Shown one piece after another: positions 7,619-45,137 of a DNA stretch of 46,128 nt. The stretch's first letter is position 1, and every line of letters starts with the position of its first letter. The notes beneath the pieces were generated by a model that was not told the origin of the DNA, did no database searches, and saw only the letters and a list, made by a program, of their open reading frames with translations. The translations under genes were made by a program, and so were the position numbers. This stretch comes from Christensenellaceae bacterium. GTDB lineage: Bacteria > Bacillota > Clostridia > Christensenellales > DTU072. The stretch spans positions 1-46,128 of the forward strand of contig JAITLB010000229.1 of assembly GCA_031278175.1 (NCBI GenBank), read 5' to 3'.

Positions 7619-7720
7619 AAGTCCGCCTTTCTTAGTAAATTAGAAACATCGTTTTACTTAGTATAACAAATTTAACTTCATTTGTTAATTAAACTGCAAA
7701 TGCAATTTAGTTATATTCTC

Positions 7721-9298
7721 TTATTTAATAAGATGTGATAGTTTAAGCAGGATTTTTGAGCCAGGAAGTCCTGTTAATTCGCGATCAGTAAAAACACCTA
7801 ATAATATCAGGGTTAAGCAATAAACAATAGAAATTGCTAATGCCGACAACAAGCATACTCCATTTGCGTCTGTAAATTTATCTATTGTAACAAGTGTTAC
7901 ACCAGCGATAATGCTGGTTATAGTTATTATAATACAACACTGCAAAATGCTACGCAGATTTCCTGTTAGGCGTATAATTGAAACATAATTTGCAAAACCC
8001 GCCACAAAAAAACAAACGCAAGAAGCGATGGCTATGCCTAAGATTCCTATACGCGAAGAAAGGAAAACTCCCAAGACAATTTTAGCGCATACGGCAAAAA
8101 GCATGCTCCTGACTGGTTTATAATAAAACCCCAGACCTTGCAGTGTGGATGCATATATTTGAGTAGCGGATAAAGCAATAACCGACACCGCGCTTACTCT
8201 TAATAAAAGTGACGCTGTAAGTAAATCGATTGTTGAAATTGATGGATAAAGGAGACTAAGAATTGACTCTGGTATGGCTATATATAATGCAGTAAATGGC
8301 GCACTAGCAAAAAAAGCCATTTTTGAGGCGGATTTGATTTTGTCCTTTATTGCTATGATATTATGTTGGGCTTTATCTTTGCTTAATAGAGGCGCTACAG
8401 CGATTCCAAGCGATAGAGCAACCATTATAGGGAAGTTTATTAAAGTCCCTACATAACCAGTATACAAGCCGTAATTGACAGTTGCAAGTGCCTGGTTGCT
8501 ATTTGCTACTCTGACATTTAGCGCTATCAAACTATCTGCTATTTGACTGAGCGGTAGTATTAATCCACCTAGTGTCATCGGTATAGTAAGCTTCAGTATT
8601 TCTTTGTATTGTGATCTTGCTTTTTTAATATTCAAGTCGAGCTTTAATGGCGGGTTGTTTTTTCTATAAACTAGATACAGCAGTAAGAAAGTTAGTGCTT
8701 CTGAAATTGTGACACCAGCTAGTGCTCCACCAACAGCATATGCAATGCCATATGGTAGTAGCAGCCATGCTAAAGCTAATCCTACAACAAGTTTAGCAAC
8801 AGACTCGGTAATTTGCGAGATCGCCGATGGTAGCATGTTTGAATTGCCTTGAAACCAACCACGCATAACCGCGATGCCCGATGTAAAAAACACAGCGGGC
8901 GCTATGCATATGAATCCGAGTTTTGTGTCCGAATTGCCCTGAAGCTTTCCGATAGGTCCTGATAGTATGGCTAAAACAAACGACAGAACAAGACTGGTCA
9001 ATAATAAAGCGGACATTGCAGTTTTTAAAATCTCACGTGCTTTGTTTGTTTCTGCATTTGCAAGTCTAGAACTAACGAGCATTGAAATTGCTATAGGCAA
9101 TGATCCCGAAGATGCCGATAAAAGGAACGCGTAAACAGGAAAAACCAATTGATATAGTCCCATTCCAGCTGGTTCTAATATGTGAGCTAAAGGCAGTCGA
9201 TGCACTGCTCCAATAATTCGTGCTATAAAAATTGCGAGAATTAAGGAGCTAGCACTTTTAATAAATCCATTTGAATGTTTATGCTTTCTTTTGCACAT
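7721..9298 (-). CDS. MOP-superfamily polysaccharide/lipid II flippase (YabM/SpoVB/MurJ-like)
   Basis: About 14 hydrophobic segments; GMGLYQLVFPVY, RGWFQG..MLPSAISQITE; lies next to the yabN-like gene. Confidence 0.85.
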   Translation of the reverse strand: MCKRKHKHSNGFIKSASSLILAIFIARIIGAVHRLPLAHILEPAGMGLYQLVFPVYAFLLSASSGSLPIAISMLVSSRLANAETNKAREILKTAMSALLLTSLVLSFVLAILSGPIGKLQGNSDTKLGFICIAPAVFFTSGIAVMRGWFQGNSNMLPSAISQITESVAKLVVGLALAWLLLPYGIAYAVGGALAGVTISEALTFLLLYLVYRKNNPPLKLDLNIKKARSQYKEILKLTIPMTLGGLILPLSQIADSLIALNVRVANSNQALATVNYGLYTGYVGTLINFPIMVALSLGIAVAPLLSKDKAQHNIIAIKDKIKSASKMAFFASAPFTALYIAIPESILSLLYPSISTIDLLTASLLLRVSAVSVIALSATQIYASTLQGLGFYYKPVRSMLFAVCAKIVLGVFLSSRIGILGIAIASCVCFFVAGFANYVSIIRLTGNLRSILQCCIIITITSIIAGVTLVTIDKFTDANGVCLLSALAISIVYCLTLILLGVFTDRELTGLPGSKILLKLSHLIK

Positions 9299-15323: not shown

Positions 15324-16535
15324 TTATTCAACCAAAAGCTTCAAGACTTCTTTCATTTGTGCTTTGTTCATAAGTTTGGGAACAGGGTACATAGGATTGC
15401 CTTCTTTGATAGCGCGAGTAGCGATAAGGTCGAAATCCTCAGCTCGAAGTCCTTTGATTTTGGTAGGTATAGACATATACTCATTCAAACTGCGAATAGC
15501 TGCTATAAACTTTTTCGCTTTTATTTCTGTGGAGTCATTCTTTTCACATATACCACCTGTGGCATCGGCTAGCTTAGCAAGAGGTTTATATGCACTCTTA
15601 CCATACCAGTCTAAAATATATGGCAAAATTACAGCATTAGCTAATCCGTGTGGCGTGCCGTAGAGTCCGCCCATAGTATGTGCTATTGCGTGTACATAAC
15701 CGATGAATGCGCGTGTGAATGAGACACCTGCATAATATGCGGCTAGTTGCATGTTTTCTCTAGCTTGTACGTCATCGCCAGTATCATATGTCGTTTTCAA
15801 GTTCTCAAATATAAGTTTTGTCGCCTTGATAGACATATCGCGAGTAAGAGACGTATTACTTCTGCCGATGTATGCTTCTACGGCATGTGTGAGTGCGTCA
15901 ACGCCTGTCGTTGAAGTGATGTGTTTTGGCAGTTTAAGTGTAAGAAGTGGATCGAGGACAGCGTAATGAGGAACCAAACAAAAGTCATTGATAGGATATT
16001 TTTCATGAGTTTTGCTGTTTGAAATTACGGCTGCGACTGTTGCTTCGCTGCCAGTGCCTGACGTTGTAGGAATAGCAAAGAGAGGAGGCAACTTTTTAAG
16101 TATTTTAAAATAGCCTTTCATTTTGCCAACGGCTTTTCTAGGTTTTACAGCGCGAGCACCAATAATTTTAGCACAATCCATGGACGAGCCACCACCAAAA
16201 GCTATAATGCAGTCACACTTGGACTCAGTATACACTTTAAGACCAGCTTCGATGTTATCAATTGTTGGATTAGGAACAGTCTCATCATAGACAGCGTATT
16301 CGAGACCTGTAGCGGTTAGGTTTTCTAATAATGGATTAGGTAAACCTAAATTCATTAAACCCTTATCGGTTACAAGCAATGGCTTTTTCAAGTTTAGAGA
16401 TTTAATAAACTTGGGCAATTCTGCGAGTTTGCCAGGACCACTAATAATTTCAGGTTTTCTAATAGGCAAGATTTTAAGTCCTATTGCAAAAACAAATTGA
16501 ATAGATCTACACCATATTTTTGAACATAAATTCAT
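15324..16535 (-). CDS. Iron-containing alcohol dehydrogenase
   Basis: GGGSSMD, IPTTSGTGSE, DALTHAVEAY, HAIAH..PHG. Confidence 0.92.
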   Translation of the reverse strand: MNLCSKIWCRSIQFVFAIGLKILPIRKPEIISGPGKLAELPKFIKSLNLKKPLLVTDKGLMNLGLPNPLLENLTATGLEYAVYDETVPNPTIDNIEAGLKVYTESKCDCIIAFGGGSSMDCAKIIGARAVKPRKAVGKMKGYFKILKKLPPLFAIPTTSGTGSEATVAAVISNSKTHEKYPINDFCLVPHYAVLDPLLTLKLPKHITSTTGVDALTHAVEAYIGRSNTSLTRDMSIKATKLIFENLKTTYDTGDDVQARENMQLAAYYAGVSFTRAFIGYVHAIAHTMGGLYGTPHGLANAVILPYILDWYGKSAYKPLAKLADATGGICEKNDSTEIKAKKFIAAIRSLNEYMSIPTKIKGLRAEDFDLIATRAIKEGNPMYPVPKLMNKAQMKEVLKLLVE

Positions 16536-16820
16536 TTAAACATTCTCCTTCTCTAAGTTATTTAAACTATAGTAAAACACGTGAACTTGTTCTAAACATC
16601 GATAGCATACCTTAACGATCAGATAAATTATGCCTGATTTGCTAACGCTATTAGAAAAGCATCATACAAATTTGATATAAAATAAATACAACTGTTATTC
16701 GCAATCATGTTATAATAAAAATGACGTGTTTATCTCATAGAAATGCATTCACTAAACTAGCAACTGTACAAATACAGCGCAACCACATCCATAAAAATGG
16801 AAGATAGCAAATACATAATA

Positions 16821-16849
16821 ATTATATAATAATTTTGCCTATATTGCAA
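16821..16849 (-). promoter_or_regulatory. Candidate sigma-70 promoter of the Fe-ADH gene
   Basis: TTGCAA-17bp-TATAAT, about 285 bp upstream of the start. Confidence 0.45.
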
Positions 16850-17175
16850 GCATGAGCAAACAATTGACTAACTTTGATTTTCATGCAAGGCATATAAGGT
16901 ATAATAAAAAGATCTGAGAGCGTGTATTGGTTCGAATTAGAAAATCCCAGTGACGCTTTTAGTTGCGCTCATAGTTTGACAGAACTATACAACATTCTAA
17001 GCTGGATGCATGATTGTAGGGAATTCAACCGCTAAAAGTCGTTTAGAATAGGTCTTTATATACATCAATAATGCTAGGGAAATTAATTCCAACACTAGGA
17101 TCAAAGCCACAAAAGCTCAATCATGCAACATCTTCGGTGTAAAAGCGGGTTTCTTATCCTAAAAACAGAATAAAA

Positions 17176-17228
17176 AGTTGACATAGCCATAAAATATAGT
17201 TGACATAGCAATTTTTAAAATGTAAAAT
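17176..17228 (+). promoter_or_regulatory. Promoter of bioY-bioB overlapped by a candidate BirA operator
   Basis: TTGACA(17200-05)-17bp-TAAAAT(17223-28). AGTTGAC-N16-GTTGACA (17176-17205) resembles the BirA site TGTtAAC-N16-GTTaACA. Confidence 0.6.
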
Positions 17229-17258
17229 ATATTAAAACACGTTAAGGATAAAATAATA

Positions 17259-18833
17259 ATGGAGACAAGCATCTCGCAAAATAGAAAAAAATTCTCACCA
17301 AAGAGACCTAATAGGCAAAAGACGACAGAGTTAGCATTATATGGATTGTTTACAGCTTTGATAATAGCTGGGACATTTATTAAAATTCCAATTCCGCTAG
17401 TTCCGATCACTATGCAATTTGTATTTGTCAATATGTCATCTTTGCTACTAGGAAGGAAAGGCGCATTCCCCGTTGCATTATACGTATTTTTAGGATTATG
17501 TGGTGTTCCAGTATTCACATCGGGTGGTGGATTTGGCTATGTGTTGCTACCCTCATTCGGTTATTTGATAGGCTTTATAATAGGAGCATTTGCCGCTGGA
17601 TGCGTTATAGACAAAGCTAAAATCAATATCAAAACGATGCTACTAGCAAGTCTCATAAACATTCTAATAATTTATATAGCGGGACTTAGTTATGTCTATT
17701 TTATAACTAATTATTATACGCCAGGAGCTAGCATAACTGTTAAGAATCTGATACTCACTATCATGCTCCGCACAATTCCAGGTGACATGCTATGGATAAT
17801 TGTGAGTAGCGTCGTTTGTGTCAAACTAAGCAAGATATTGCGAAATAAAATACTGAAAAAAGATAAGCCAAGCATAATAAACACAATGAAGGAAAAAATT
17901 CTAGCAGGAGATCGCATATCAAAGCAAGACGCGATGAGACTTGTGGATGTACCTCTTGAAGAATTGTGCAGAGCAGCAGATGAAATAAGAGAAAAGGTCT
18001 GCGGAAACACCTTTGATATGTGCTCTATAATAAATGGAAAAAGCGGAGGCTGTACAGAAAACTGTAAGTTCTGTGCGCAATCTAAACATCATAAAACGCA
18101 TATTGAAGAATTAAATCCACCCGACTGTGATGTGGTCGTCTCCGAAGCAGTGCATAACTATAATAAAGGGGTATTGAGATTTTCTATAGTTACAGCTGGA
18201 AGAGCTTTATCCGATAGTGAAGTAGATGATATGTGCGAGAAGTATCAACAAATAGGGCAAGCTTGTGACATATTTAGATGCGCATCACACGGGTTATTGA
18301 CGTATGAACAATTGAAAAAGTTGAAAGATGCTGGGGTAAGGCGATATCACAACAACCTCGAAGTGTCGAGACGATATTTCCCTAACATGTGCACGACCCA
18401 CACATATGACGATAAAATCAATACGATAAAAGCGGCCCTTGCTGCAGGGCTTGAAGTTTGTAGTGGTGGAATAATGGGAATAGGTGAAACTATGGAGGAC
18501 AGGATAGACATGGCACTAGATTTGCGTGAAATCGGTGTTCGGTCAATTCCTGTTAATATAATTAACCCAATACCTGGAACTCCATACATGAACACTGTCC
18601 CATTGTCGGAATCCGAAGTTAGACGCATTGTTGCAATCTTCAGGTTTGTAATACCAGACGCAATGATACGGATGGCAGGAGGGCGAGGTTTGCTTAATGA
18701 CAAGGGGGCGAGCGTATTCAAATCAGGTGCTAATGCCGCCGCAACAGGCGACATGTTAACGACAGCAGGCATAAGTATCGAAAACGATATGGAGATAGTC
18801 AAGAATTTAGGTTTTGAGGTGCGTTTAAAATAG
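17259..18833 (+). CDS. bioY-bioB: In-frame fusion of biotin ECF S-component BioY and biotin synthase BioB
   Basis: N-terminal ~195 aa: VPITMQ, YVFLGLCGVPVFTSGGG, PSFGYLIGF, IPGD. C-terminal part: CTENCKFCAQS (CxxxCxxC), CASHG, RYHNNLE, VCSGGIMG, IRMAGGR, GDMLTT. No stop or RBS at the junction. Confidence 0.92.
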   Translation: METSISQNRKKFSPKRPNRQKTTELALYGLFTALIIAGTFIKIPIPLVPITMQFVFVNMSSLLLGRKGAFPVALYVFLGLCGVPVFTSGGGFGYVLLPSFGYLIGFIIGAFAAGCVIDKAKINIKTMLLASLINILIIYIAGLSYVYFITNYYTPGASITVKNLILTIMLRTIPGDMLWIIVSSVVCVKLSKILRNKILKKDKPSIINTMKEKILAGDRISKQDAMRLVDVPLEELCRAADEIREKVCGNTFDMCSIINGKSGGCTENCKFCAQSKHHKTHIEELNPPDCDVVVSEAVHNYNKGVLRFSIVTAGRALSDSEVDDMCEKYQQIGQACDIFRCASHGLLTYEQLKKLKDAGVRRYHNNLEVSRRYFPNMCTTHTYDDKINTIKAALAAGLEVCSGGIMGIGETMEDRIDMALDLREIGVRSIPVNIINPIPGTPYMNTVPLSESEVRRIVAIFRFVIPDAMIRMAGGRGLLNDKGASVFKSGANAAATGDMLTTAGISIENDMEIVKNLGFEVRLK

Positions 18834-18919
18834 TAGTCTTATAATGATTGGGTGCAATGGTTTTAGAAATTGTTGTCACAAACAATTTGAATGTTAATTA
18901 GAAGTTAGAATTTAAAAGC

Positions 18920-19999
18920 TTACGATATCACACCACCACCAAGGCATATATCTTGACTGTAAGCCACAGCAAATTGTCCTGGGGTGACGGCGCGGACGGG
19001 TGTATCAAAGACAAAGCGCAGAGTGTTGCGCGTGGCTGTAGTATAAGCGGTAGCGGGTACTAAAGGTTGGCGGTGTCTTGTTCTTACTAAAATGCGCGAA
19101 CCGTCTGATATCGTAGAATTGATGTAATTGAAATCTTTTGCAATAAGTTGGGAGGAGAAGAGTTCAGGACATTCGCCTTGATTAACGTAGAGGATATTGT
19201 TTTCAACGTCTTTTTTGACAACAAAGTATGCTTCTCCCTCACCGCCACCAATTGATAATCCTTTTCGCTGTCCGATTGTATAATAGAAAACACCATTATG
19301 ATGTCCTAAAAGTTTGCCAGATAAGTCGCGTGTTTCGCCACGTTGCATCGGAATATAATTGGATAAAAATTTGCGGAAATTTCGTTCGCCGATGAAACAT
19401 ATACCAGTGCTGTCTTTTTTTTCAGCGGTAGCTAAACCGTGGATACGCGCAATTTCGCGCACCTGAGATTTGGTAAGTTGAGCTAGTGGGAATAATACAT
19501 TTTCTAGTTGAGCGACACTCAATTGATTTAAAAAATAGGTTTGGTCTTTGTTTTCATCTTTCGCTCTGACTAAATGTAAGCCATCCATGTCAGTTTTCAA
19601 GCCTGCGTAATGACCTGTTGCAATATAATCGGCATCTAATCTTGTAGCATATTCCTTGAAAGGTCCGAACTTTATTTCTCTATTACATAAAACATCTGGA
19701 TTGGGTGTGCGACCCGCCTTGTATTCTTCAACGAACAAATTAAAAACTCTAGTTTGATATTCGCTGCTGAGATCGATGGTATAGTAGGGTATATTCAGCA
19801 CTGAAGCGATACGGCGCACATCCGCAAAATCTTCTTCTGCCGTGCATGCGCCGTCTTCGGATGTTTCGTGCCAGTTGTGCATAAAAAGTCCAATAACATC
19901 GTTTCCTGCTTCTTTAAGAAGAAGAGCGACCACGGAACTATCTACACCTCCGCTCATGCCGACAACTATTCTTTTGCCATTTGGTAATGATAACATCAC
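18920..19999 (-). CDS. mnmA: tRNA 2-thiouridine(34) synthase
   Basis: GMSGGVDSS, GRTPNPDVLCNREIKF, ATGHY, KDQTYFL, DSTGICFIGE, TIGQRKG, VTPGQ. Confidence 0.97.
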   Translation of the reverse strand: MMLSLPNGKRIVVGMSGGVDSSVVALLLKEAGNDVIGLFMHNWHETSEDGACTAEEDFADVRRIASVLNIPYYTIDLSSEYQTRVFNLFVEEYKAGRTPNPDVLCNREIKFGPFKEYATRLDADYIATGHYAGLKTDMDGLHLVRAKDENKDQTYFLNQLSVAQLENVLFPLAQLTKSQVREIARIHGLATAEKKDSTGICFIGERNFRKFLSNYIPMQRGETRDLSGKLLGHHNGVFYYTIGQRKGLSIGGGEGEAYFVVKKDVENNILYVNQGECPELFSSQLIAKDFNYINSTISDGSRILVRTRHRQPLVPATAYTTATRNTLRFVFDTPVRAVTPGQFAVAYSQDICLGGGVIS

Positions 20000-20174: not shown

Positions 20175-20251
20175 TGGTGTACCCGACAGGGATCGAACCT
20201 GCAACCTACAGCGTCGGAGGCTGTTACTCTATCCAATTGCGCTACGGGTAC
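20175..20251 (-). tRNA. tRNA-Arg (anticodon CCG)
   Basis: 77-nt cloverleaf GTACCCG..CGGGTAC-A-CCA; anticodon arm ACAGC-CTCCGAC-GCTGT; T-loop TTCGATC. Confidence 0.95.
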
Positions 20252-20715: not shown

Positions 20716-21129
20716 TTATGAGAACGGTCGTCCTTGCTTGATGCTGTCTAATATCTTGCGTCTCAACCTAAAAATAGTAAGTGCAGAAACACCGATCCTA
20801 GCTGCGCTTTTTTTAAGAGAAACACCGTTTAAAGTGTCCTCTATCGCCATGCGCCATGTTGCATCAGTTAAATGAGAACCATGTCTAGTTGTAAGTCTCG
20901 TTGCACTAAATGACTTATGACATTCCTTGCAAAGAAAACGTTGTTTATTAGTCATCACACCGTTTTTCACTAAGTTCTCTGAATTGCAATATGGGCATTT
21001 GTGTATTTCACCAACGGTGATGTCATCCTTAACATCTGGCATTGTCTTTAAAAGTGTCAGTGCTGTTATTATTTGATCGCGACTATACTTAGACAGCAAT
21101 AAAAGTAGTTCTTTCATCATCTCAATCAT
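20716..21129 (-). mobile_element. IS1595/IS1-like transposase N-terminal part only (Zn ribbon + HTH, no DDE domain)
   Basis: CPYCNS..KNG..QRFLCKECHKSF followed by SLKKSAARIGVS..TIFRLRRKIL; stops at 137 aa. Confidence 0.65.
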
Positions 21130-26570: not shown

Positions 26571-27140
26571 TTATTTAATATGAGACACAACGATGCCAGG
26601 TTTTCCATCTGCTACGCAATTAGATGGAATGCTTTTAGTTATTAAACTCCCAGCACAAATAACACTGTTTTTACCAATAGTAACACCTGGCAAAATAGTT
26701 GCATTTGCACCGATTAAAACATTATCCTCTATGACGATTGGAAAGCCAAAAGCGACACTGTCAAGTCTTGTGGTTGGATCAAGGGGGTGACCCACTGCAC
26801 AAAGGGTAACATTGGGACCTAATATGACGTTGCATCCAATATGTATTTCACAATCGTCAACTAGTGTTAGACTATAACTTGCATAACAGTTATCACCCCA
26901 ATATGTATTTATCCCCCAGTTGGCATATAAAGGAGCGAGTATATTGAGGTTTTGACCGACCGCGCCGAAAAGAGTTTTTAATATTTTTTGCTTTGCGTGG
27001 TGTCTTGCTGGATGAGTTTTATTGTATTTGTGAACTAAAGCGATGTATTCTTGCTGTGTCTCAATAAAGGTTTCATCAAAGCGATAGAGTCTGCCGCTAG
27101 TAGCATAGTCCCTAAATTTTTCGCGGAGTTCTTTTTGCAT
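26571..27140 (-). CDS. Sugar O-acetyltransferase (Maa/LacA family), diverged paralog
   Basis: Hexapeptide repeats; GPNVTLCAVGHP; ILPGVTIGKNSVI. Confidence 0.85.
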   Translation of the reverse strand: MQKELREKFRDYATSGRLYRFDETFIETQQEYIALVHKYNKTHPARHHAKQKILKTLFGAVGQNLNILAPLYANWGINTYWGDNCYASYSLTLVDDCEIHIGCNVILGPNVTLCAVGHPLDPTTRLDSVAFGFPIVIEDNVLIGANATILPGVTIGKNSVICAGSLITKSIPSNCVADGKPGIVVSHIK

Positions 27141-27191
27141 ATAAAGAGTTTATCTATTTTATAAAGAAATAGCAAAGGTGCTATTATCGGG

Positions 27192-27839
27192 TTAATGCTT
27201 TCCAGATGTTTTAAATGATCCGATGTCTTTTATTTCTCGGCCTTTGGAATAGTATTGCCTGTCATACTCTCCAATTTCTCTTACAAATTTGCAAGGACTA
27301 CCTAGTGCTAAGCAGTTTGGAGGGAGATCTTTAGTAACTAAACTGCCAGCACCAACGACTGTGTTGTCTCCGATCTTAACGCCAGGCATAACAGTGACAT
27401 TTGCGCCGAGCCAAACCCCGTTACCAATTTCTATAGGAAATCCAAATTGTGCTACTTTGGGAAATCTAAGAGAGGGGTCAATGGGATGTCCGACAGTGCA
27501 GAGTGTAACGTTAGGACCGAACATGACGTTGTTTCCAATATGTATTTCGCAGTCGTCAACTAGTGTAAGAGAAAAATTTGCATAGCAGTTATCACCCCAA
27601 TAAGTATTAATTCCCCAATTTGCATAAAACGGTGCTTCAATATATAGTTTCTTACCAACTGATCCAAATATGCGTTGTAGCAAAAATCGTTTTGTCAAAA
27701 AGCGGTAGGGATGTACTCTATTGTAGTGATGAACCATTGCCATATATTTCTGTTGCGCACGAATAAAAGTTGTATCACAAAAATACAGATTACCACTGGT
27801 GGCAGATTCTTTTAGTCTTTCTCTAAGTTTCTTATTCAT
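27192..27839 (-). CDS. Sugar O-acetyltransferase (Maa/LacA family)
   Basis: YANFSLTLVDD, GPNVTLCTVGHP, IGNGVWLG, VGAGSLVTKD, GSPC. Start placed at ATG 27839 by alignment with the paralog. Confidence 0.9.
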   Translation of the reverse strand: MNKKLRERLKESATSGNLYFCDTTFIRAQQKYMAMVHHYNRVHPYRFLTKRFLLQRIFGSVGKKLYIEAPFYANWGINTYWGDNCYANFSLTLVDDCEIHIGNNVMFGPNVTLCTVGHPIDPSLRFPKVAQFGFPIEIGNGVWLGANVTVMPGVKIGDNTVVGAGSLVTKDLPPNCLALGSPCKFVREIGEYDRQYYSKGREIKDIGSFKTSGKH

Positions 27840-27866
27840 AGTAAATGGAGGTTCCCAAAATAATAT

Positions 27867-27913
27867 AAAAATTGCTGCGACCGACAATTGCTTGCTTTGT
27901 GCCGATCGCAGCA
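27867..27913 (-). terminator. Intrinsic terminator after the membrane-protein pair
   Basis: 14-bp stem TGCTGCGATCGGCA/TGTCGGTCGCAGCA (2 G-U pairs) followed by ATTTTT on the minus strand. Confidence 0.7.
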
Positions 27914-27942: not shown

Positions 27943-29286
27943 TTATTGCGAATTGCGACTGTTATAGTCGTCAATCGAGGCATAATAACTTCGCATATAC
28001 GGACTATCGTCTACAACTTGTGGTCTATACGAGGTTGTTCCATATCCACTAGCAGTTGATTGAGCGGGTATTGGAATTCCTTTAGATCCTGAGAATGCAC
28101 CTTTTAGTGAGCGACCTTTGCCAACATATTGAGACTTTCGTATTATACCTATAGCTAAGCTAGAGATAGCGACAAAAACACCAAAAATGTAGAAAGCGTT
28201 TCTCAAAGGGAATATCGAAATAATAGCTACGATCAAATAATTGCTATCAAACCAAGCCATGCGTTTATAATCAAACACACCTCTAGTTTCGCTGTTAGGA
28301 ACAAGTTTAATTTGAATCACTCCAGTTTCAGCATTAATAAGTTTCATATCAATATAGATGGGCGCACCTAGCACGTTTTCATCTGCTAATGCAGTAGCCA
28401 AGGAAGCCATTATATCATCGATTGGAATGGTGCCCGTATAGTCTTCTGTGAAATAGCCTTCCGAAACAAACATAACAATACCCGTTAGATCGCCAAGTAA
28501 ATCATTTAGATTTAGGTCTAGACTCATTACATCTTGTTGCATGTCGAGAATTGCCCATTTTATAGGAGCATCTTTATTTTCCTCGCCTCTGCCCTCACCG
28601 ACATAATTGGTGAATGGTTTGCTGGGGGCAGCTCTCTCATCAAACAACAAGTGTATGAGAACGGGGATAGTAAGTCTACTACCGTCAGCTAAATTAATGA
28701 GTGGGCCAGGCCAATTTCTATAAGCATCATTGTCAATACTCTGAAATGACTCTTTTATTAACTTCTGAACATCTTCGTTTTGATACCCCTCGCTTCTGTA
28801 TGTCTCAGCCTTAGCGGGGTCTAAACGAGCATTAGCAATGTTCATCTCGATAAAATCGTGTAGCATTTCCGAGTGGAGATATGCTCGATCAGCATAGTCC
28901 TCTTCAAGATCGGAATAATGTATTGTGTTGCTCGTAGCACTTGATAGTATTGGTGGCAAGTATTTATCAAGAGCGAACCAAACACCTGTTGTTAGAATGA
29001 CACTTGCAATGACCAGCACCGTAGTACCAATATAGGCAGAGCGTGCCGTTTTCCTTCTTTTTGTGATCATTCCAGTTATTAGTGCAACAAGCAAGTATAA
29101 CAACCAAATTACAACCATAACAAGCAAACCTGCAAATACATATGGCATATAAGTAGTATTATCTGTGCCCACATTAGAATCATATATTACGAACATGCTT
29201 TGGTAGACGGTATATGCCATCAAAACAGGGAATCCTAATACATAAGCAAATACTTTAAGCCAAAACAGACCTTTTGATTTTTTCAT
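27943..29286 (-). CDS. Hypothetical membrane protein (3 N-terminal TM, large acidic domain, C-terminal TM)
   Basis: 447-aa ORF; hydropathy judged by eye; TAATG overlap with the upstream gene. Confidence 0.8.
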   Translation of the reverse strand: MKKSKGLFWLKVFAYVLGFPVLMAYTVYQSMFVIYDSNVGTDNTTYMPYVFAGLLVMVVIWLLYLLVALITGMITKRRKTARSAYIGTTVLVIASVILTTGVWFALDKYLPPILSSATSNTIHYSDLEEDYADRAYLHSEMLHDFIEMNIANARLDPAKAETYRSEGYQNEDVQKLIKESFQSIDNDAYRNWPGPLINLADGSRLTIPVLIHLLFDERAAPSKPFTNYVGEGRGEENKDAPIKWAILDMQQDVMSLDLNLNDLLGDLTGIVMFVSEGYFTEDYTGTIPIDDIMASLATALADENVLGAPIYIDMKLINAETGVIQIKLVPNSETRGVFDYKRMAWFDSNYLIVAIISIFPLRNAFYIFGVFVAISSLAIGIIRKSQYVGKGRSLKGAFSGSKGIPIPAQSTASGYGTTSYRPQVVDDSPYMRSYYASIDDYNSRNSQ

Positions 29287-31096: not shown

Positions 31097-31876
31097 TTAT
31101 TTGTCATTATCTGTTAGAGCACTCTCGTACTCCACATGTACTAAGCACAGCCCTTTCGCTGGTAATGTTTTGAAATTGATGTCTCTTTTCCCGCTTGCTA
31201 GCATTTTTGAAATATCATCAATTTTCATTTGTTGTTTGCCTACAGCAATAAGCGCACCGACAAGCATCCGCACCATTTTGTACAGAAAGCCATTCCCAGT
31301 AATTGAGAAACTAATCTCGTCAGATGCCTGTTGTATTGAAACATCATAGATTTCGCGCGTTGTAGTTTTGACACTGCGCGAATAGGCAGAAAATGCTGCA
31401 AAATCGTGGGTTCCAAGGAGGATAGTGATCGCTTGCTTGATTAGTTCTATGTTTAAAGGTGGAAATACGCGCTCCGCAAAGCGCGTTTTGAGAGGTTGGA
31501 TCGTATTTGACAAATAAATCGTATATTTGTATGTTTTACGTTTTGTAGAATATTGAGCGTGAAAGTCGCTTGAAACAAATTTGCACTCCCTAATTTTTAT
31601 GTCGTCAGGGAGTAAGGAGTTTAAAGCATACATGATTTTTTCAGCTGTGTTGTTTGTTACACAGTCAAAATGGGCTGTCTGTCCTAGCGCATGGACACCC
31701 GAATCAGTGCGGCCACTTCCAGTTAAGCAGATTTTTGTTTGGAATAAAACACTGAGTGCCACTTCAATAACCGCTTGTATTGAGAGTGCATTTGATTGTC
31801 TTTGCCAACCCGCATAAGAAGTTCCATCGTATTCTACACGGATGAGAACTCTCTTGGGTGTTAATTCTAGTAGCAT
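31097..31876 (-). CDS. truA: tRNA pseudouridine(38-40) synthase
   Basis: YDGTSYAGWQRQ, GSGRTDSGVHALGQ, GTHDF, GNGFLYKMVR; GAGGAGG RBS before ATG 31876. Confidence 0.95.
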   Translation of the reverse strand: MLLELTPKRVLIRVEYDGTSYAGWQRQSNALSIQAVIEVALSVLFQTKICLTGSGRTDSGVHALGQTAHFDCVTNNTAEKIMYALNSLLPDDIKIRECKFVSSDFHAQYSTKRKTYKYTIYLSNTIQPLKTRFAERVFPPLNIELIKQAITILLGTHDFAAFSAYSRSVKTTTREIYDVSIQQASDEISFSITGNGFLYKMVRMLVGALIAVGKQQMKIDDISKMLASGKRDINFKTLPAKGLCLVHVEYESALTDNDK

Positions 31877-32050: not shown

Positions 32051-32869
32051 TCATATGCCGAATATGATCCAGATCATACTGTCGATGCGTACAACGAAAG
32101 TAATCAGAAGTGCAGCTAGAAAGAGTGCTATAAAATCGCGGATATGCAATTTTAATTCTTTCAGTTTTGTCCTATGTGGTGTAGCGTTATAACATCTAGC
32201 ATCCATAGCGGCGGCTAGGTCATCAGCGCGTCTAAACGCGGACACGAATAGAGGAATCAGTACGGGCAGTAGTGCTTTAATTCGTTTAATTAAATTGCCA
32301 GTATCAAAGTTCGCGCCACGTGCCTTTTGGGCCATAATAATTTTATCTATTTCCTCGATTAGTATAGGAATAAAACGCAGTGCTATGCTCATAGTAATGG
32401 CGATATCGTGAACAGGCACCTTTATAAGCTTAAGTGGGGACAATAGATTTTCCATGCCATCCGTTATGCTCATAGGGGTAGTTGTAAAAGTTAATAGGGA
32501 TGTGCCCGAGACCAACAAGAGCAATTTTAACGCTAGCTTAGATGCGAGTAGCAACCCCTCGTCAGTGATTACAAGAAATCTCCAAGACCATAAGGTATTG
32601 CCACTCTTGTTAAAAAACACATTCATAATGCCTGTAAAGATAATGATAAAGAAAATACCTTTGATGCTTTTTAGAACTTTACTGAACGGAATTTTGGATG
32701 TCGCAATAGCAATAGCTAAAAACACTACAACTGGCAGATATGATAAAAGGCTTTTTGTTAGAAAAACACCTACTACAAACAAGATTACGAATATGAGTTT
32801 AACTCGCGGATCCAATTTATGCAAAACGGAGTTAGCTGGATAATATTGACCAAACGCGACATCTCTCAT
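32051..32869 (-). CDS. ecfT: ECF transporter transmembrane T component
   Basis: LHKLDPRVK, IALRFIP, AQKARG, AMDARCY. Confidence 0.93.
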   Translation of the reverse strand: MRDVAFGQYYPANSVLHKLDPRVKLIFVILFVVGVFLTKSLLSYLPVVVFLAIAIATSKIPFSKVLKSIKGIFFIIIFTGIMNVFFNKSGNTLWSWRFLVITDEGLLLASKLALKLLLLVSGTSLLTFTTTPMSITDGMENLLSPLKLIKVPVHDIAITMSIALRFIPILIEEIDKIIMAQKARGANFDTGNLIKRIKALLPVLIPLFVSAFRRADDLAAAMDARCYNATPHRTKLKELKLHIRDFIALFLAALLITFVVRIDSMIWIIFGI

Positions 32870-33720
32870 TTTAGTCCCTCCTTTGCATTAATGATAGCAT
32901 TGGCGAGTTCAGTTGTAGTAAGTGGTGTGCCTGTTTCTATACCACGCTCACGCAGCATATTTGATATTTTTACACAATGTGGAGGTTCTAGTCCTGTATC
33001 TGTAAAAGCGCTAGAATCTGCGAATAATTCAACAGGGGTACAATCTCGAATAAGTCTGCCATTATTCATAACTAAAACCCTTTGCGTATACTCAGCAATT
33101 TCGTCCATGTTGTGACTTATCATGATTACTGTTTTAATGTAATTGCCTTTAATTTGAGCTATCAGATTGAGCATTTCTCGTTTTCCAGCTGGGTCCAATC
33201 CTGCTGTAGGTTCGTCAAGCACTAAGATTTTAGGACGGCACGCTAACACTCCTGCTATAGCGGCGCGACGACGTTGCCCACCCGATAATTCAAAAGGTGA
33301 TCTGTTTTTCACTTCATCAAAATCGAGTCCTACTAGACGTATCGACTCCTCAGCTGCTATTTTAGCATCGCTAAGAGTTGCTCCAAAATTTAATGGGCCA
33401 AAGCATACGTCTTGTAATACTGTGTCAGCAAACAACTGATACTCAGGATATTGAAAGAGCATCCCCACACTGCGACGTAACCGTTTAAGGTCAGGTCTTT
33501 TTGCCGTGAGATCTATATCATAAACTTTGACTGATCCGCTAGTTATGCGTATTAATCCGTTCAAATGCTGTATGAGTGTAGATTTGCCCGACCCTGTAGA
33601 ACCAATAATGCCTACTGTTTCGCCCTCGGTTATCTCAAAAGATACGTTTTGAATTGCAACTTTTGCAAATGAAGTTTTAGGGGCATACGTAAATGATAAG
33701 TCGCTTACTACAATTGACAT
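32866..33720 (-). CDS. ecfA2: ECF transporter ATPase A'
   Basis: GSTGSGKST, FQYPEYQLF, SPFELSGGQ, LDEP. Confidence 0.93.
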   Translation of the reverse strand: MSIVVSDLSFTYAPKTSFAKVAIQNVSFEITEGETVGIIGSTGSGKSTLIQHLNGLIRITSGSVKVYDIDLTAKRPDLKRLRRSVGMLFQYPEYQLFADTVLQDVCFGPLNFGATLSDAKIAAEESIRLVGLDFDEVKNRSPFELSGGQRRRAAIAGVLACRPKILVLDEPTAGLDPAGKREMLNLIAQIKGNYIKTVIMISHNMDEIAEYTQRVLVMNNGRLIRDCTPVELFADSSAFTDTGLEPPHCVKISNMLRERGIETGTPLTTTELANAIINAKEGLK

Positions 33721-34538
33721 ACTGCCTCCGCTAATTCTATATCAGTTAAGACAATAGGCACATTAAGACCCGCCTCGTTCAATTTAAGTGCAACTTCTGT
33801 AGCATGCGGGAATTCCAAACCAGCACTTTTTATAATTGCTGTCTCCTTAAATACGTTCAATGGTGTATCGTTTGCGACAATTGATCCGTTATTTAGTACA
33901 ACTATTCGATCGACATCGACTGTTTCATCCATGTAATGTGTTATTAGAATTACAGTCATTTTCTTTTCTTTGTTAAGTTTGCGTGCTGTATCCATGACCT
34001 CGGCTCTACCGCGAGGATCGAGCATTGCTGTCGCTTCATCTAAAATCAACACTTCAGGCGACATCGCAAGCACGGCAGCGATTGCAACACGTTGCTTTTG
34101 CCCACCTGAGAGCTTTTGAGTAGTTCGCAACCGATGTTCGGTCATGCCGACAACGCTTAATACCCAATCAACGCGTTTGCGAATTTCGTCTCTTTCAATG
34201 CCAAGGTTTTCAGGTCCGAATGCGAGGTCATCCTCAATTATTGTCGCCACCATTTGATTGTCAGGATTTTGAAACACTAAACCTACTTTGCTACGTATGT
34301 TGAATGAATGATCCTCATTTGAAGTTAGCATGCCATCTACTATGACTTCGCCTGTATCTGGTACAAGCGAAGCATTCAAAAGTTTTGCGAGTGTTGATTT
34401 TCCACTGCCGTTACGTCCTAGTATAGCAACGAACTCACCTCGGTGAATATCTAAGTTTATTGCTGACACGCCACGCACAATTTGATCATCGCTTTGATAA
34501 TTGACGCTAGCGTCTTTAATTTGTATAATTGTATCCAA
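33708..34538 (-). CDS. ecfA1: ECF transporter ATPase A
   Basis: GRNGSGKST, FQNPDNQ, LSGGQKQR, LDEATAMLDP. Confidence 0.93.
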   Translation of the reverse strand: MDTIIQIKDASVNYQSDDQIVRGVSAINLDIHRGEFVAILGRNGSGKSTLAKLLNASLVPDTGEVIVDGMLTSNEDHSFNIRSKVGLVFQNPDNQMVATIIEDDLAFGPENLGIERDEIRKRVDWVLSVVGMTEHRLRTTQKLSGGQKQRVAIAAVLAMSPEVLILDEATAMLDPRGRAEVMDTARKLNKEKKMTVILITHYMDETVDVDRIVVLNNGSIVANDTPLNVFKETAIIKSAGLEFPHATEVALKLNEAGLNVPIVLTDIELAEAVCQL

Positions 34539-43909: not shown

Positions 43910-44896
43910 TTAAGTGTTTAGTAAAAGTGGTCTAATTTCACCAGCATGTAGTGGAATTAAATCGCCGTTTGCTAGTTCAACTATTAAAGCCCCTGTTTGG
44001 TCTATGTTTCGAATTTTGGCATAATATTCATTTGCGGATGATATAACTTTTACGACTTCTCCGACAAATTCGAGTCTATTTTTGTAGTCAGTTATCATTT
44101 TGGTGAAATCAGATGCAAAGCTATCATCCATAATTAAATTAATAAGCTCAGCAGTTAAAGTTTTTCGAGCAAGTCCTATTTCCATTTCTGGGAAGATTGA
44201 AGTTGCGATATCTTCTATTTCAGTTGGGAAAGAATCAGTAGCGACATTTATACCTATGCCGAGCACAACCCACTCTGTTTCGCCGGTAACGAAGTCTTGC
44301 AGAGCTTCGGTGCCTATGCCACAGATTTTTTTTCTATCTATCAAGATATCATTAACCCATTTGATAGATGTTTTTTTGTCAGATATTTTAGCTATTGCAT
44401 TACACACCGCGACTGCTGCGCTCATAGTGATCGAAGCTGGTGTGATTGTTCTAAACCGACCACCACGCAATAGAAAACTGATATATATACCTGTCCACTT
44501 GGGCGAGTAAAATAGATGATCGCGACGCCCCCGTCCAAAGGTTTGTGAATCAGCAAATGCGATCAGACCGTGTCCTGCGCCCATGTTAGCTTGTTCTCTT
44601 AAGTATTCATTAGTTGAGCCTATAGATGTAAAGAATTTTGCGTTGTCAATATCATCAGGTCGGCAAAGAAGAGGTTTAATATTTTCTGCATTGATTATAT
44701 TATCGCGATAAACAAGTTCATAACCACGTGGCCTTATAGCAGTTATAGGATAACCTTGATTTTGCAAACTAATAATTGTCTTTGAGACAGCACTACGAGT
44801 GATGCCAAGCATCTTTCCAATTTTTGCACCAGACAACAACCCTTTTCCGTAATTTGCTTCTAATAAATTTAAAATTTCTTGTTTTGTTTTTCCCAT
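43910..44896 (-). CDS. birA: Bifunctional biotin repressor / biotin-protein ligase (class II)
   Basis: N-terminal wHTH (SGAKIGKMLGITRSAVSK); STN, QTFGRGR, IKWVND, KICGI, GIGIN. Confidence 0.93.
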   Translation of the reverse strand: MGKTKQEILNLLEANYGKGLLSGAKIGKMLGITRSAVSKTIISLQNQGYPITAIRPRGYELVYRDNIINAENIKPLLCRPDDIDNAKFFTSIGSTNEYLREQANMGAGHGLIAFADSQTFGRGRRDHLFYSPKWTGIYISFLLRGGRFRTITPASITMSAAVAVCNAIAKISDKKTSIKWVNDILIDRKKICGIGTEALQDFVTGETEWVVLGIGINVATDSFPTEIEDIATSIFPEMEIGLARKTLTAELINLIMDDSFASDFTKMITDYKNRLEFVGEVVKVISSANEYYAKIRNIDQTGALIVELANGDLIPLHAGEIRPLLLNT

Positions 44897-45137
44897 ATGA
44901 CAACCCAAGTAGAGTATTTGTTGCACTAATTATAGCACTTAAAAAGACAATTTGCAAAACCATATCAAACATTGTTTTTGAGTAGTGATAAATTTATGCT
45001 GGGTAGGCCGGCTTGAGATGGTGGACACAAATCCAAATCCCTTTGTATAAAAAATAAGCAAACGTACAAAACTTGCACGAGTATTTTCTAAGTGTGTCTT
45101 TAAAAAACAAATGTTTTTCCTTGCATAAAACTTATAA

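What the first reader, a model, noticed from the sequence alone, without database searches (positions are those of the whole stretch)
17259..18833. BioY-BioB fusion: a vitamin transporter covalently joined to a radical-SAM biotin synthase
Seen: one 524-aa ORF with a complete BioY, a short basic linker (KILRNKILKKDKPS) and a complete BioB with CxxxCxxC, two further Cys and the Arg ligand. There is no internal stop or SD, and no bioA/D/F in the window. Known: bioY and bioB are commonly adjacent separate genes, BioB converts dethiobiotin to biotin and is dimeric, and S-components topple in the membrane during transport. Inference: a membrane-tethered salvage enzyme that could channel imported dethiobiotin. 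It raises the question of how toppling works with a dimeric enzyme attached. I cannot check whether the fusion is already described.
Basis: partly seen in the sequence, partly recalled or inferred. Interest (0 to 1): 0.8.

Follow-up and report, generated by a model that had tools for sequence, protein, structure and literature searches.

The report
Biotin transporter fused to biotin synthase
A termite-gut bacterium encodes its vitamin-B7 importer (BioY) and the last enzyme of B7 synthesis (an oxygen-sensitive Type II biotin synthase) as one membrane protein, which suggests that BioY also imports the precursor dethiobiotin.

Summary
Window 17259..18833 (+) is one uninterrupted 524-aa ORF. It contains a complete BioY S-component (Pfam 107 bits), a 17-residue basic, mostly helical linker, and a complete BioB (TIGR00433 384 bits against a 225 cut-off).

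It is not an artefact. 28 other proteins of 493-541 aa share the architecture at 44-64% identity. Two same-genus genomes and three more distant ones carry it in one frame. Sister species keep bioY and bioB split, with overlapping or in-frame stop and start codons.

The BioB half is Type II: Ser replaces E. coli Cys97, Cys255 is present, and the best PDB match is 8VCW.

The 87%-complete genome shows no bioA, bioD or bioF, no second BioY and no second BioB. It does have ecfAA'T and a group II birA in the window.

Dethiobiotin import and channelling are inferred, not shown. NCBI annotates only the BioB part. Four literature searches found no description. I rate it a new variant of a known kind, of moderate interest.

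The parts
17176..17205 (+). BirA-operator-like element, AGTTGACA-N14-AGTTGACA. It is a direct repeat where relatives have an inverted repeat, and it overlaps the -35 box.
   Evidence: It matches TGTNAAC-N16-GTTNACA with 2 mismatches. That is not significant alone: 78 of 100 shuffles gave 2 or more matches. The exact palindrome lies directly upstream of bioY in 6 of the 25 loci held at that point (L011, L017, L020, L021, L022, L025). A 1-mismatch version lies upstream of the G001 gene. The consensus itself is recalled, not taken from a call.
17200..17228 (+). Promoter-like site, TTGACA-17 nt-TAAAAT, about 30 nt upstream of the ATG.
   Evidence: Best-scoring site in 16500-19100, with 11 of 12 positions. 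The number of sites in the region is not above chance (12 found against 10.6 expected), so only position and score support it.
17259..18833 (+). Single 524-aa ORF encoding BioY-linker-BioB (P0001).
   Evidence: It is the only BioY hit and the only BioB hit in the genome.
17307..17831 (+). BioY S-component domain, residues 17-191 (Pfam core 46-191 = nt 17394-17831). It is preceded by a basic N-terminal tail, residues 1-16.
   Evidence: Pfam PF02632 at 107 bits. 4dve_A E 2.6e-10, query 17-191 to chain 12-188. The AF2 model has membrane helices at 19-40, 53-80, 100-119, 124-153 and 161-202. Hydrophobic segments were found.
17832..17882 (+). Linker, residues 192-208 (KILRNKILKKDKPSIIN). It is basic; residues 192-202 continue the last BioY helix, followed by a 3-residue break.
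   Evidence: Sequence. The AF2 helix 161-202 runs on into the linker, with a break at 203-205 and a helix at 206-215; pLDDT is 65-76 for blocks 191-210. The region has no invariant column and carries indels among 29 fused proteins.
17886..17888 (+). Internal in-frame ATG (Met210), which NCBI's annotation used as the start of a 315-aa 'BioB'.
   Evidence: P0003 (315 aa; sources NCBI and nr) and P0001 (524 aa; JGI/IMG and Logan) are both called on the same 46128-nt contig. Met210 is not conserved and is Leu in most fused homologues.
17883..18821 (+). Type II biotin synthase domain, residues 209-521 (TIGR00433 core nt 17913-18818).
   Evidence: TIGR00433 at 384 bits against a cut-off of 225. 8vcw_A E 1.3e-94, 8vdw_A 4.5e-80, E. 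coli 1r30_A only 3.6e-41. Type II markers C255, S309, C341, S343, H364, C401 and R476 are present and are invariant or nearly so in the fused family.
18051..18074 (+). Radical-SAM cluster motif CxxxCxxC (C265, C269, C272).
   Evidence: It is invariant in alignment A1.
32051..34538 (-). Shared ECF energising module: ecfA (33708-34538), ecfA' (32866-33720) and ecfT (32051-32869), followed by truA (31097-31891).
   Evidence: Pfam ABC_tran twice and CbiQ (E 3.9e-49). The fold of the fusion with EcfT gave only weak support.
43910..44926 (-). Group II biotin protein ligase / repressor BirA (338 aa; HTH_11 plus BPL domains).
   Evidence: TIGR00121 at 139 bits against a cut-off of 83. Pfam HTH_11 at 16-69 and BPL_LplA_LipB at 100-227.

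Best explanation
This is a genuine gene fusion. It most likely arose by loss of the stop codon between tightly packed bioY and bioB genes. It encodes one bifunctional membrane protein.

The six-helix BioY half is the substrate-capture (S) component of a group II ECF transporter. It sits in the membrane with both ends in the cytoplasm. A short basic helix extends its last transmembrane helix and holds a complete Type II radical-SAM biotin synthase at the inner face of the membrane.

In this anaerobe, which shows no bioA, bioD or bioF, the protein is the whole biotin-acquisition system. BioY takes up biotin vitamers, including dethiobiotin, probably using the shared EcfAA'T module encoded 13 kb away. 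The tethered BioB then inserts sulfur into dethiobiotin to give biotin for BirA. Expression is probably repressed by the group II BirA.

Shown here: the architecture, the catalytic residues, conservation of the fusion, the gene content and the split precursors. Inferred: dethiobiotin transport by BioY, use of the ECF module, and any kinetic benefit of the tether. Proximity or 1:1 co-expression is more likely than a sealed channel.
For: 1. There is one ORF with both halves complete.
2. The fusion is conserved. 29 of the 120 listed hits carry BioY, Radical_SAM and BATS. 28 of these are 493-541 aa with 94-100% coverage and 44-64% identity.
3. In alignment A1, C255, C265, C269, C272, C341, S343, H364, C401 and R476 are invariant, as are many BioY positions. 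Met210 is not conserved.
4. In DNA, the match lies in a single frame without stops in G001, G002, G014, G335 and G341.
5. Precursor states exist in the same order. In G028 the bioY TGA overlaps the bioB ATG. In G171 a TGA is followed in the same frame by the ATG four codons later. In G242 the gap is 5 nt.
6. The BioB tree and the BioY tree recover the same shallow clades, so the two halves evolve as a unit.
7. Gene content of G000 (86.7% complete): one BioY and one BioB, both in this ORF. bioD gave no match. bioF scored 21.8 bits against a cut-off of 426. The best 'bioA' hit is ArgD, at 475 bits against 410. G001 (91% complete) and G002 (89% complete), of the same genus, also show no bioD or bioA over cut-off. 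Each has a single BioY match.
8. ecfA, ecfA' and ecfT lie in the window, as does a group II BirA. An operator-like palindrome lies upstream of bioY in 6 of 25 loci.
9. Topology fits. Both the N-terminal tail and the linker are K/R-rich. S-components are described as having N and C termini in the cytoplasm, and a C-terminal Strep tag on FolT was used in the full complex (passages of PMC4820897).
10. In the AF2 model (pLDDT 86.3, pTM 0.65) TM6 continues as a helix to residue 202.
11. Bacteria that keep only bioB grow on desthiobiotin, and its importer is stated to be unknown (passages of PMC9561691).
12. Fold of the fusion with EcfT gave weak support. The median score was 0.49 and the best of 3 controls 0.00; partner pLDDT was at least 67 and runs agreed in at least 73% of contacts. 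The mark was reached by 58 of 80 solved complexes and 2 of 110 mismatched pairs. At 0.60 or under it was reached by only 7 of those 80 and by both mismatches. S-component/EcfT complexes are solved, so the pass may come from the model's memory.
Against: 1. Chlamydia BioY: 3H-biotin uptake was significantly inhibited only by biotin, not by desthiobiotin. Dethiobiotin transport by a BioY is therefore not established and may not be general.
2. The fusion is not tied to salvage. In G335 bioD and bioA follow the fused gene directly, so dethiobiotin can be made inside that cell.
3. Sister species work with split genes (G242, in the same genus as fused G335; also G180, G028 and G171). G280 keeps BioY with a decayed BioB remnant that lacks CxxxCxxC. 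The tether is therefore dispensable.
4. G000 is a 275-contig genome at 86.7% completeness, so absence of bioA, bioD and bioF is not proven.
5. There are no raw reads, RNA or protein data. The only contig support probably comes from the source sample.
6. The window's own operator-like site is degenerate and not significant alone.
7. Support for docking to EcfT is only weak.
Confidence: 0.6

Rival explanations
1. The fusion is real but functionally neutral, a product of easy stop-codon loss. Because bioY and bioB overlap or abut, losing one stop fuses them at no cost. The BioY half imports biotin only. Dethiobiotin reaches BioB some other way, by diffusion, by another carrier, or from bioD/bioA where those are present. 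The tether gives at most co-expression in a 1:1 ratio.
For: Split and fused forms alternate among close relatives. At least 3 changes of state are needed among 10 DNA-verified loci, and G242 (split) is sister to the clade that holds fused G335 in both domain trees (99*, 94). In G171 the stop and the next start are in the same frame, four codons apart. The linker has no conserved residue and looks like the native tail plus the former intergenic stretch. Chlamydia BioY is not inhibited by desthiobiotin. In G335 the fusion sits in an operon with bioD and bioA.
Against: The fused state persists across 44-64% sequence divergence with both halves under purifying selection. In G000, G001 and G002 the fused BioY is the only BioY found and BioB has no detectable internal substrate source. 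Keeping an intact BioB then makes sense only if dethiobiotin comes in from outside. Junction-spanning forms are rare, at 7 of the top 150 representatives. That rarity is hard to square with fusions that arise easily and cost nothing.
Confidence: 0.27
2. Two proteins are made in vivo. Translation starts again at Met210 (nt 17886), as NCBI annotates, or the linker is cleaved, so that free soluble BioB is the working enzyme.
For: NCBI calls a 315-aa BioB from this ATG (P0003). NCBI also makes BioB-only calls of 318 and 321 aa for the G001 and G002 genes (P0016 is identical to the G001 BioB part; P0161). The linker has lower model confidence, with pLDDT 65-76.
Against: No stop separates the halves, so any ribosome translating BioY must run on into BioB. 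No Shine-Dalgarno-like sequence precedes 17886. Met210 is Leu in most of the 29 fused proteins. JGI/IMG and Logan gene calls give 524 aa. The short calls most likely follow BioB family models; this is my inference.
Confidence: 0.08
3. Assembly or sequencing artefact: a lost stop codon or a frameshift error in this metagenome-assembled contig.
For: Depth is only about 7.5. The only run that holds the sequence may be the source sample, and only contigs, not raw reads, were available. P0006 and G398 show that broken or frame-shifted versions exist in public data.
Against: A second assembler's contig is identical over 17100-18950. The same in-frame junction occurs in five other genomes and in 28 other proteins from several sources.
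Confidence: 0.02
4. The BioB half is no longer an enzyme and instead serves as a cytoplasmic sensor or regulatory domain of the transporter.
For: Decayed BioB remnants attached to BioY exist: G280 at 372 aa, and P0166 and P0167 at 346 and 326 aa with no Radical_SAM or BATS hit.
Against: Here every cluster ligand and the Type II active-site His and Ser are intact and invariant in the family. The TIGR00433 score is well over the equivalog cut-off.
Confidence: 0.03

Closest known systems
Separate, adjacent bioY-bioB genes (here G028, G171, G242 and G180; a 'bioYB' operon is named in the listing and abstract of PMC4554459 for Paracoccus denitrificans)
   Same: Same two families in the same order, bioY then bioB. 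An operator-like palindrome lies upstream of bioY. The genome content is often bioB plus bioY only; for C. autoethanogenum and C. ljungdahlii (passages of PMC6505512).
   Different: Here no stop codon separates them, so one polypeptide is made and BioB is tethered to the membrane.
Type II biotin synthase, B. obeum BioB (PDB 8VCW) and V. parvula BioB (8VDW); JACS 2024, PMC10813225 (passages read)
   Same: E 1.3e-94 over the full length. The Ser-for-Cys97 swap, the Cys at the E. coli Ser43 position, and the Cys, Ser, His, Cys and Arg positions all align. It comes from an anaerobe, as do the Type II enzymes.
   Different: The solved enzymes are free soluble proteins of 327 and 364 aa. This one has a 208-residue membrane domain and linker at its N terminus.
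L. lactis BioY (PDB 4DVE), a group II ECF S-component
   Same: Full-length alignment, query 17-191 to chain 12-188. A shared ecfAA'T module lies in the genome.
   Different: Solved and studied BioY proteins end after helix 6. This one continues into an enzyme. Its substrate range is untested.
bioB-only desthiobiotin salvagers (ISME J 2022, PMC9561691; passages read)
   Same: The genome retains only the last step of the pathway, so growth on external desthiobiotin is expected.
   Different: In that work the importer is stated to be unknown. Here the candidate importer is covalently attached to the enzyme.
BtuM, an S-component-like vitamin B12 transporter that also chemically modifies its substrate (PMC6072759; only the search listing and the start of the abstract were seen)
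   Same: Transport by an S-component-type protein is coupled to chemistry on the transported vitamin.
   Different: BtuM does the chemistry within the membrane protein itself. Here a separate, complete radical-SAM enzyme domain is appended.
Biotin protein ligase-BioY fusion (P0305, 443 aa), found here
   Same: A cytoplasmic biotin-handling enzyme is fused to BioY.
   Different: The enzyme is the ligase, and it sits at the N terminus of BioY. I did not search the literature for it.

Membership tests
BioY (PF02632), biotin-specific S-component of ECF transporters | Sequence match over the family's curated cut-off, covering the full domain | tested here: met
   107 bits against 25, profile positions 2-139 of 140. 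110.3 bits in the genome search. 4dve_A alignment 17-191 to 12-188.
BioY (PF02632), biotin-specific S-component of ECF transporters | Bundle of about six membrane helices with both termini in the cytoplasm | tested here: inconclusive
   The AF2 model has long helices at 19-40, 53-80, 100-119, 124-153 and 161-202, plus a short one at 92-96. Both ends are K/R-rich. Orientation is inferred from the positive-inside rule and was not measured.
BioY (PF02632), biotin-specific S-component of ECF transporters | An ECF module (EcfA, EcfA', EcfT) is available and binds the S-component | tested here: inconclusive
   The genes are present in the window. The fold with EcfT gave weak support, 0.49 against a best control of 0.00, and may come from the model's memory.
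BioY (PF02632), biotin-specific S-component of ECF transporters | High-affinity binding and transport of biotin (and, as proposed here, dethiobiotin) | not testable with these tools
   No assay is possible. The paper on the 4DVE binding site was not held, so the pocket residues were not compared.
Biotin synthase BioB (TIGR00433 equivalog) | Score over the equivalog cut-off, with Radical_SAM and BATS domains | tested here: met
   384.2 bits against 225. PF04055 70.9 bits and PF06968 79 bits.
Biotin synthase BioB (TIGR00433 equivalog) | CxxxCxxC motif for the radical-SAM [4Fe-4S] cluster | tested here: met
   C265, C269 and C272, invariant in A1.
Biotin synthase BioB (TIGR00433 equivalog) | Conversion of dethiobiotin to biotin | not testable with these tools
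   This needs an anaerobic enzyme assay or complementation.
Type II BioB (auxiliary [4Fe-5S]; PMC10813225) | Ser at the E. coli Cys97 position and Cys at the E. coli Ser43 position, with the other two Cys and the Arg kept and the active-site His and Ser conserved | tested here: met
   S309 and C255, then C341, C401 and R476, then H364 and S343. Each aligns with the same residue in 8vcw_A. 8VCW scores E 1.3e-94 against 3.6e-41 for E. coli 1R30.
Type I BioB (auxiliary [2Fe-2S], E. coli type) | Cys at the E. coli Cys97 position as the first auxiliary-cluster ligand | tested here: not met
   The position is Ser309, in the sequence RFSIVTAG. It is Ser in nearly all of the fused proteins in A1.
BioY-BioB fused architecture (family defined here) | One reading frame through both domains, without a stop, in DNA | tested here: met
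   Window. G001, G002, G014, G335 and G341 each give a single tblastn HSP in one frame.

The most novel reading that the evidence does not exclude
BioY-BioB is an 'import-and-finish' machine. The S-component captures dethiobiotin outside the cell and releases it next to the active site of its own covalently attached radical-SAM enzyme. If so, the fusion is a natural Rosetta stone that identifies BioY as the long-sought dethiobiotin importer. It would also be the first ECF S-component known to work with a 36-kDa enzyme attached to helix 6. That forces one of two conclusions: either toppling on EcfT tolerates a large cytoplasmic cargo, or this BioY works without toppling.
Probability: 0.3. Interest if true: 0.75.

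Novelty: new variant of a known kind. Interest (0 to 1): 0.55.

Why it matters
1. The route by which desthiobiotin enters bioB-only bacteria is stated as unknown. A covalent link between BioY and BioB, in genomes with no other source of the substrate, gives a direct and testable candidate.
2. It is a natural construct for ECF mechanism studies. It can show whether an S-component with a bulky domain on its C-terminal helix still docks on EcfT and topples.
3. It places an extremely oxygen-sensitive Type II radical-SAM enzyme at the membrane. The sulfur donor of Type II BioB is still unknown.
4. It shows pathway erosion ending in one gene: bioY-bioB-bioD-bioA, then bioY-bioB, then a fused gene, and in some lineages BioY with a decayed BioB stub.
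5. NCBI records annotate only the BioB part and leave the BioY half uncalled. Vitamin-auxotrophy predictions for these gut bacteria would therefore miss their only biotin transporter.

Tried and rejected
- Expression: no RNA holder was listed for the gene, so nothing can be said about transcription.
- Runs X2 and X3, from the same study as X1, laid nothing. This says nothing about presence or absence.
- Raw reads were not available.
- BirA operator: the window's site has 2 mismatches and is not significant alone. I keep it only as an orthologous position.
- Independent origins: the 83-row BioB tree needs 7 fused/unfused changes, of which starred branches force 5. I rejected that count. 'BioB-only' rows can be truncated calls of fused genes: P0016 is identical to the G001 fused gene, and P0003 and P0161 are further examples. 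I used DNA-verified rows only, which give 3 changes among 6 fused and 4 split loci, or 4 with G398.
- Rows left out of the BioB tree: P0007, and every second one of the 90 short BioBs, so 45 of 90 were used.
- The BioY tree (88 rows) has unresolved deep nodes, 41 of 85 branches open and many long branches. It therefore cannot say whether clades A, B and C fused separately. Rows left out there: P0006, P0025, P0031 and L011, and every second one of 98 representatives, so 49 were used.
- P0006 looks frame-shifted in its BioY C-terminal part and is near-identical in BioB to a short BioB, P0062. I treat it as a probable artefact.
- A comparison of biotin-pocket residues between fused and solitary BioYs was dropped, because the 4DVE paper was not held.
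- Hebbeln 2007 and Rodionov 2009 were also not held. They could mention such fusions.
- InterPro and UniProt domain-architecture tables cannot be queried here. Supplements are closed, so the SSN and tables of PMC10813225 could list fused sequences that I could not see.
- Literature searches for the fusion (and 24 for desthiobiotin salvage) found no description. The 'fusion' and 'fused' hits that I opened did not concern a BioY-BioB protein. The other listed papers I judged from their titles and abstracts only.
- The class-level search used E <= 1e-120. Weaker fused forms would have been missed.
- Fold search, the protein-atlas search, the plasmid and phage searches and Rfam were not used. Sequence evidence sufficed and nothing pointed to a mobile element or an RNA.
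Full report
OBSERVATION. Window 17259..18833 (+) is one ATG-started 524-aa ORF with no internal stop. Pfam finds BioY at residues 46-191 (107 bits, cut-off 25), Radical_SAM at 262-420 and BATS at 431-520. NCBIfam's bioB equivalog TIGR00433 scores 384 bits against a cut-off of 225 over residues 219-520. Against solved structures, residues 17-191 align with L. lactis BioY (4dve_A positions 12-188 of 198). Residues 209-521 align with a biotin synthase (8vcw_A positions 5-319 of 327). Both halves are therefore complete. Only residues 192-208 (KILRNKILKKDKPSIIN) lie between them.

IS IT REAL?
- A protein search returned 29 hits with all three Pfam domains among the 120 listed. 28 of them are 493-541 aa with 94-100% coverage and 44-64% identity. 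One, P0007, is 825 aa.
- In the 29-row alignment A1 the radical-SAM cysteines, the auxiliary-cluster residues and many BioY positions are invariant. The linker has indels and no invariant column. The internal Met210 is Leu in most rows.
- At DNA level a single-frame match without stops spans both domains in two genomes of the same genus (G001 at 67% and G002 at 65% identity), in one of the same family (G014) and in two of other families of the order (G335, G341).
- A second assembler's 4546-nt contig from run X1, labelled termite gut metagenome, covers 17100-18950 with no difference. X1 may be the source sample, so this excludes only an assembler-specific error.
- Conservation across independent genomes is the real argument against an artefact.

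HOW THE FUSION AROSE. Relatives keep bioY and bioB as separate genes, packed tightly.
- G028: the bioY TGA overlaps the bioB ATG.
- G171, same genus as G028: the bioY TGA is followed by the bioB ATG four codons later in the same frame.
- G242, same genus as the fused G335: the gap is 5 nt.
- G180: a 220-nt spacer.
Losing one stop codon is enough to fuse such pairs. The linker then looks like BioY's native basic tail, plus the former intergenic codons, plus BioB's native N terminus.
On a BioB-domain tree the fused genes fall into three groups.
- One is an all-fused clade of 14 rows (100*).
- One is a group of 14 fused rows with 2 split rows inside it.
- One is the query clade, whose sister is the split G180 (100*).
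Counting only loci whose DNA I inspected (6 fused, 4 split), at least 3 changes of state are needed. The full-tree count of 7 is unreliable, because short 'BioB' entries can be truncated calls of fused genes (see below). The BioY-domain tree recovers the same shallow clades, including split G242 next to the clade holding fused G335, but its deep nodes are unresolved. Fusion, or fission, has therefore happened more than once. I cannot say how often or in which direction.

HOW COMMON IS IT?
- 3 of 40 relatives carry the fusion.
- 2 of 400 sampled genomes of the order carry it.
- 0 of 398 sampled genomes of the class carry it at E <= 1e-120.
- Within the window's own family, 3 of 24 other genomes have the fusion, 18 of 24 have only a solitary BioY, and 3 of 24 have no match.
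- In a library of 1.84 billion 50%-identity representatives, a query spanning the junction (residues 1-280) found 6767 BioY-like proteins at E <= 0.001. Only 7 of the top 150 cross the junction, and 4 of those are confirmed three-domain proteins: P0014, P0018, P0164 and P0165.
The architecture is rare and concentrated in this order.

WHAT KIND OF BioB? The best structural relatives are 8VCW (E 1.3e-94) and 8VDW (4.5e-80). E. coli 1R30 scores only 3.6e-41. Passages of PMC10813225 identify 8VCW and 8VDW as Type II BioBs from Blautia obeum and Veillonella parvula. The paper defines Type II by these features:
- Ser at the E. coli Cys97 position;
- Cys at the E. coli Ser43 position;
- an auxiliary [4Fe-5S] cluster held by three Cys with an Arg stacked on it;
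- a conserved His and Ser in the active site;
- extreme oxygen sensitivity;
- occurrence in obligate anaerobes.
The window's protein has all of the residue markers: C255, S309, C341, S343, H364, C401 and R476. They are invariant or nearly so in the fused family.

GENOMIC SETTING. The genome (G000) has 275 contigs, 86.7% completeness and 2.3% contamination.
- It has one BioY match and one BioB match, both in this ORF.
- bioD gave no match. bioF gave 21.8 bits against a cut-off of 426.
- The best bioA-like hit, at 246 bits against 405, is an ArgD transaminase, at 475 bits against 410.
- G001 (91% complete) and G002 (89% complete), of the same genus, and also G014 and G341, likewise show no bioD and no bioA over cut-off.
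- The window carries ecfA, ecfA', ecfT and truA at 31097-34538. This is the usual shared module of group II ECF transporters.
- It also carries a 338-aa BirA with an HTH domain at 43910-44926.
- Upstream of the ORF lie the best promoter-like site of the region, TTGACA-17-TAAAAT at 17200-17228, and overlapping it AGTTGACA-N14-AGTTGACA at 17176-17205.
- The exact palindrome TGTNAAC-N16-GTTNACA, a consensus I recalled, lies just upstream of bioY in 6 of the 25 loci held then. The window's version has 2 mismatches and is not significant alone.
The fusion is not restricted to salvage-only genomes. In G335 bioD and bioA follow the fused gene directly. The split G242 and G180 also have bioD downstream of bioB. 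In G398 bioY and bioD are both in pieces. The likely history is erosion of a bioY-bioB-bioD-bioA cluster.

MECHANISM (best reading, confidence 0.6).
- Shown: a complete S-component and a complete Type II BioB lie in one frame, conserved as a unit.
- Shown: the ends are K/R-rich, which fits cytoplasmic termini. S-components are described with both termini in the cytoplasm, and a C-terminally tagged FolT was used in the full complex.
- Shown: in the AF2 model (pLDDT 86.3, pTM 0.65) the last BioY helix runs on to residue 202, breaks for three residues and is followed by BioB's N-terminal helices. The enzyme is thus held close to the inner membrane face.
- Inferred: BioY takes up dethiobiotin as well as biotin, powered by EcfAA'T. 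BioB converts dethiobiotin beside the exit site. BirA uses the biotin and represses the gene.
- Support for the salvage role: passages of PMC9561691 state that bioB-only bacteria grow on desthiobiotin and that its route of entry is unknown. Passages of PMC6505512 describe clostridia with only bioB and bioY.
- Docking: a fold of the fusion with the window's EcfT gave weak support only. The median score was 0.49 and the best of 3 controls 0.00; partner pLDDT was at least 67 and runs agreed in at least 73% of contacts. The mark was reached by 58 of 80 solved complexes and 2 of 110 mismatched pairs. At 0.60 or under it was reached by only 7 of those 80 and by both mismatches. Similar complexes are solved, so this may be memory.

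AGAINST THIS READING.
- For Chlamydia BioY expressed in E. coli, biotin uptake was significantly inhibited only by biotin, not by desthiobiotin.
- Split genes serve close relatives.
- A BioY with a decayed BioB stub exists in G280, and similar proteins are P0166 and P0167.
- The G335 operon can supply dethiobiotin internally.
- The genome is incomplete.
- There are no RNA, protein or raw-read data.
The main rival (0.27) is therefore a real but functionally neutral fusion that gives co-expression only.

ANNOTATION POINT. The same contig yields two gene calls: 315 aa from NCBI and nr (P0003) and 524 aa from JGI/IMG and Logan (P0001). NCBI likewise lists a 321-aa 'BioB [Christensenellaceae bacterium]' (P0161) where JGI aa on the G002 contig. 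NCBI's 318-aa P0016 is identical to the BioB part of the fused G001 gene. In NCBI-derived databases the fusion is therefore hidden and the BioY half is left uncalled. None of the fused hits lists UniRef among its sources.

NOVELTY. Four full-text searches for the fusion and one on desthiobiotin salvage found no description of a BioY-BioB protein. 'bioYB' appears only as an operon name in the listing of PMC4554459. The foundational ECF comparative-genomics papers and the BioY structure paper were not held. InterPro could not be queried and supplements are closed. 'Undescribed' is therefore provisional. Both domains are textbook families and the combination is a new variant of a known kind. I set interest at 0.55.

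Noticed in passing
window 17886-18833 (and L010, L011): NCBI gene calls give only a BioB of 315-321 aa that starts at an internal codon of the fused frame, leaving the BioY half unannotated. JGI/IMG and Logan call the full length (P0003 against P0001; P0161 against P0162; P0016 is identical to the G001 BioB part).
   Followed up: yes
L024 (G280:C1:994400-997200), about 970-2090 (+): A 372-aa frame holds a complete BioY, the first BioB helices and then a degenerate tail without CxxxCxxC. This is a decayed BioB stub in the same genus as the fully fused G341. P0166 (346 aa) and P0167 (326 aa) look similar, with BioY as the only Pfam hit.
   Followed up: partly
P0305 (443 aa, representative library): A biotin protein ligase domain (BPL_LplA_LipB, residues 12-134) is fused to the N terminus of a BioY (290-437). 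This is a second kind of enzyme-BioY fusion. P0189 (413 aa) has an unassigned 250-residue N-terminal part before its BioY.
   Followed up: partly
P0007 (825 aa, JGI): A BioY...BioB protein with roughly 300 extra residues between the BioY hits (from residue 59) and Radical_SAM (565-720). It could be an insertion or a mis-assembly; I did not examine it.
   Followed up: no
L022 (G398:C23:5100-8600): An intact BioB is preceded by a bioY interrupted by several stops and followed by bioD in three fragments. This looks like an eroding bioY-bioB-bioD cluster or a poor assembly.
   Followed up: partly
L019 (G335:C30:4800-8400) and downstream to 9226: The fused bioY-bioB gene is followed directly by bioD (7381-7905) and bioA (8051-9226). 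bioF was not searched for in that genome.
   Followed up: partly
window 20716-21129 (-): A 137-aa ORF with two CxxC pairs (CPYC...CKEC) and no Pfam hit at E <= 1e-5. It lies next to tRNA-Arg(CCG) at 20175-20251 and might be a small IS- or transposase-related zinc-ribbon protein.
   Followed up: no
window 27943-30893 (-): Two adjacent ORFs of 447 and 535 aa with no Pfam family at E <= 1e-5, upstream of two hexapeptide acetyltransferases (26571-27887).
   Followed up: no
window 40215-43451 (-): A 1078-aa protein with BspA-type leucine-rich repeats and a Listeria-Bacteroides repeat, probably a surface protein. It lies between birA and a 984-aa GATase_5-containing protein (37248-40202).
   Followed up: no
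window 15324-16535 (-) and 34581-35783 (-): Two iron-containing alcohol dehydrogenase paralogues. One lies immediately upstream of the fusion gene on the opposite strand.
   Followed up: no
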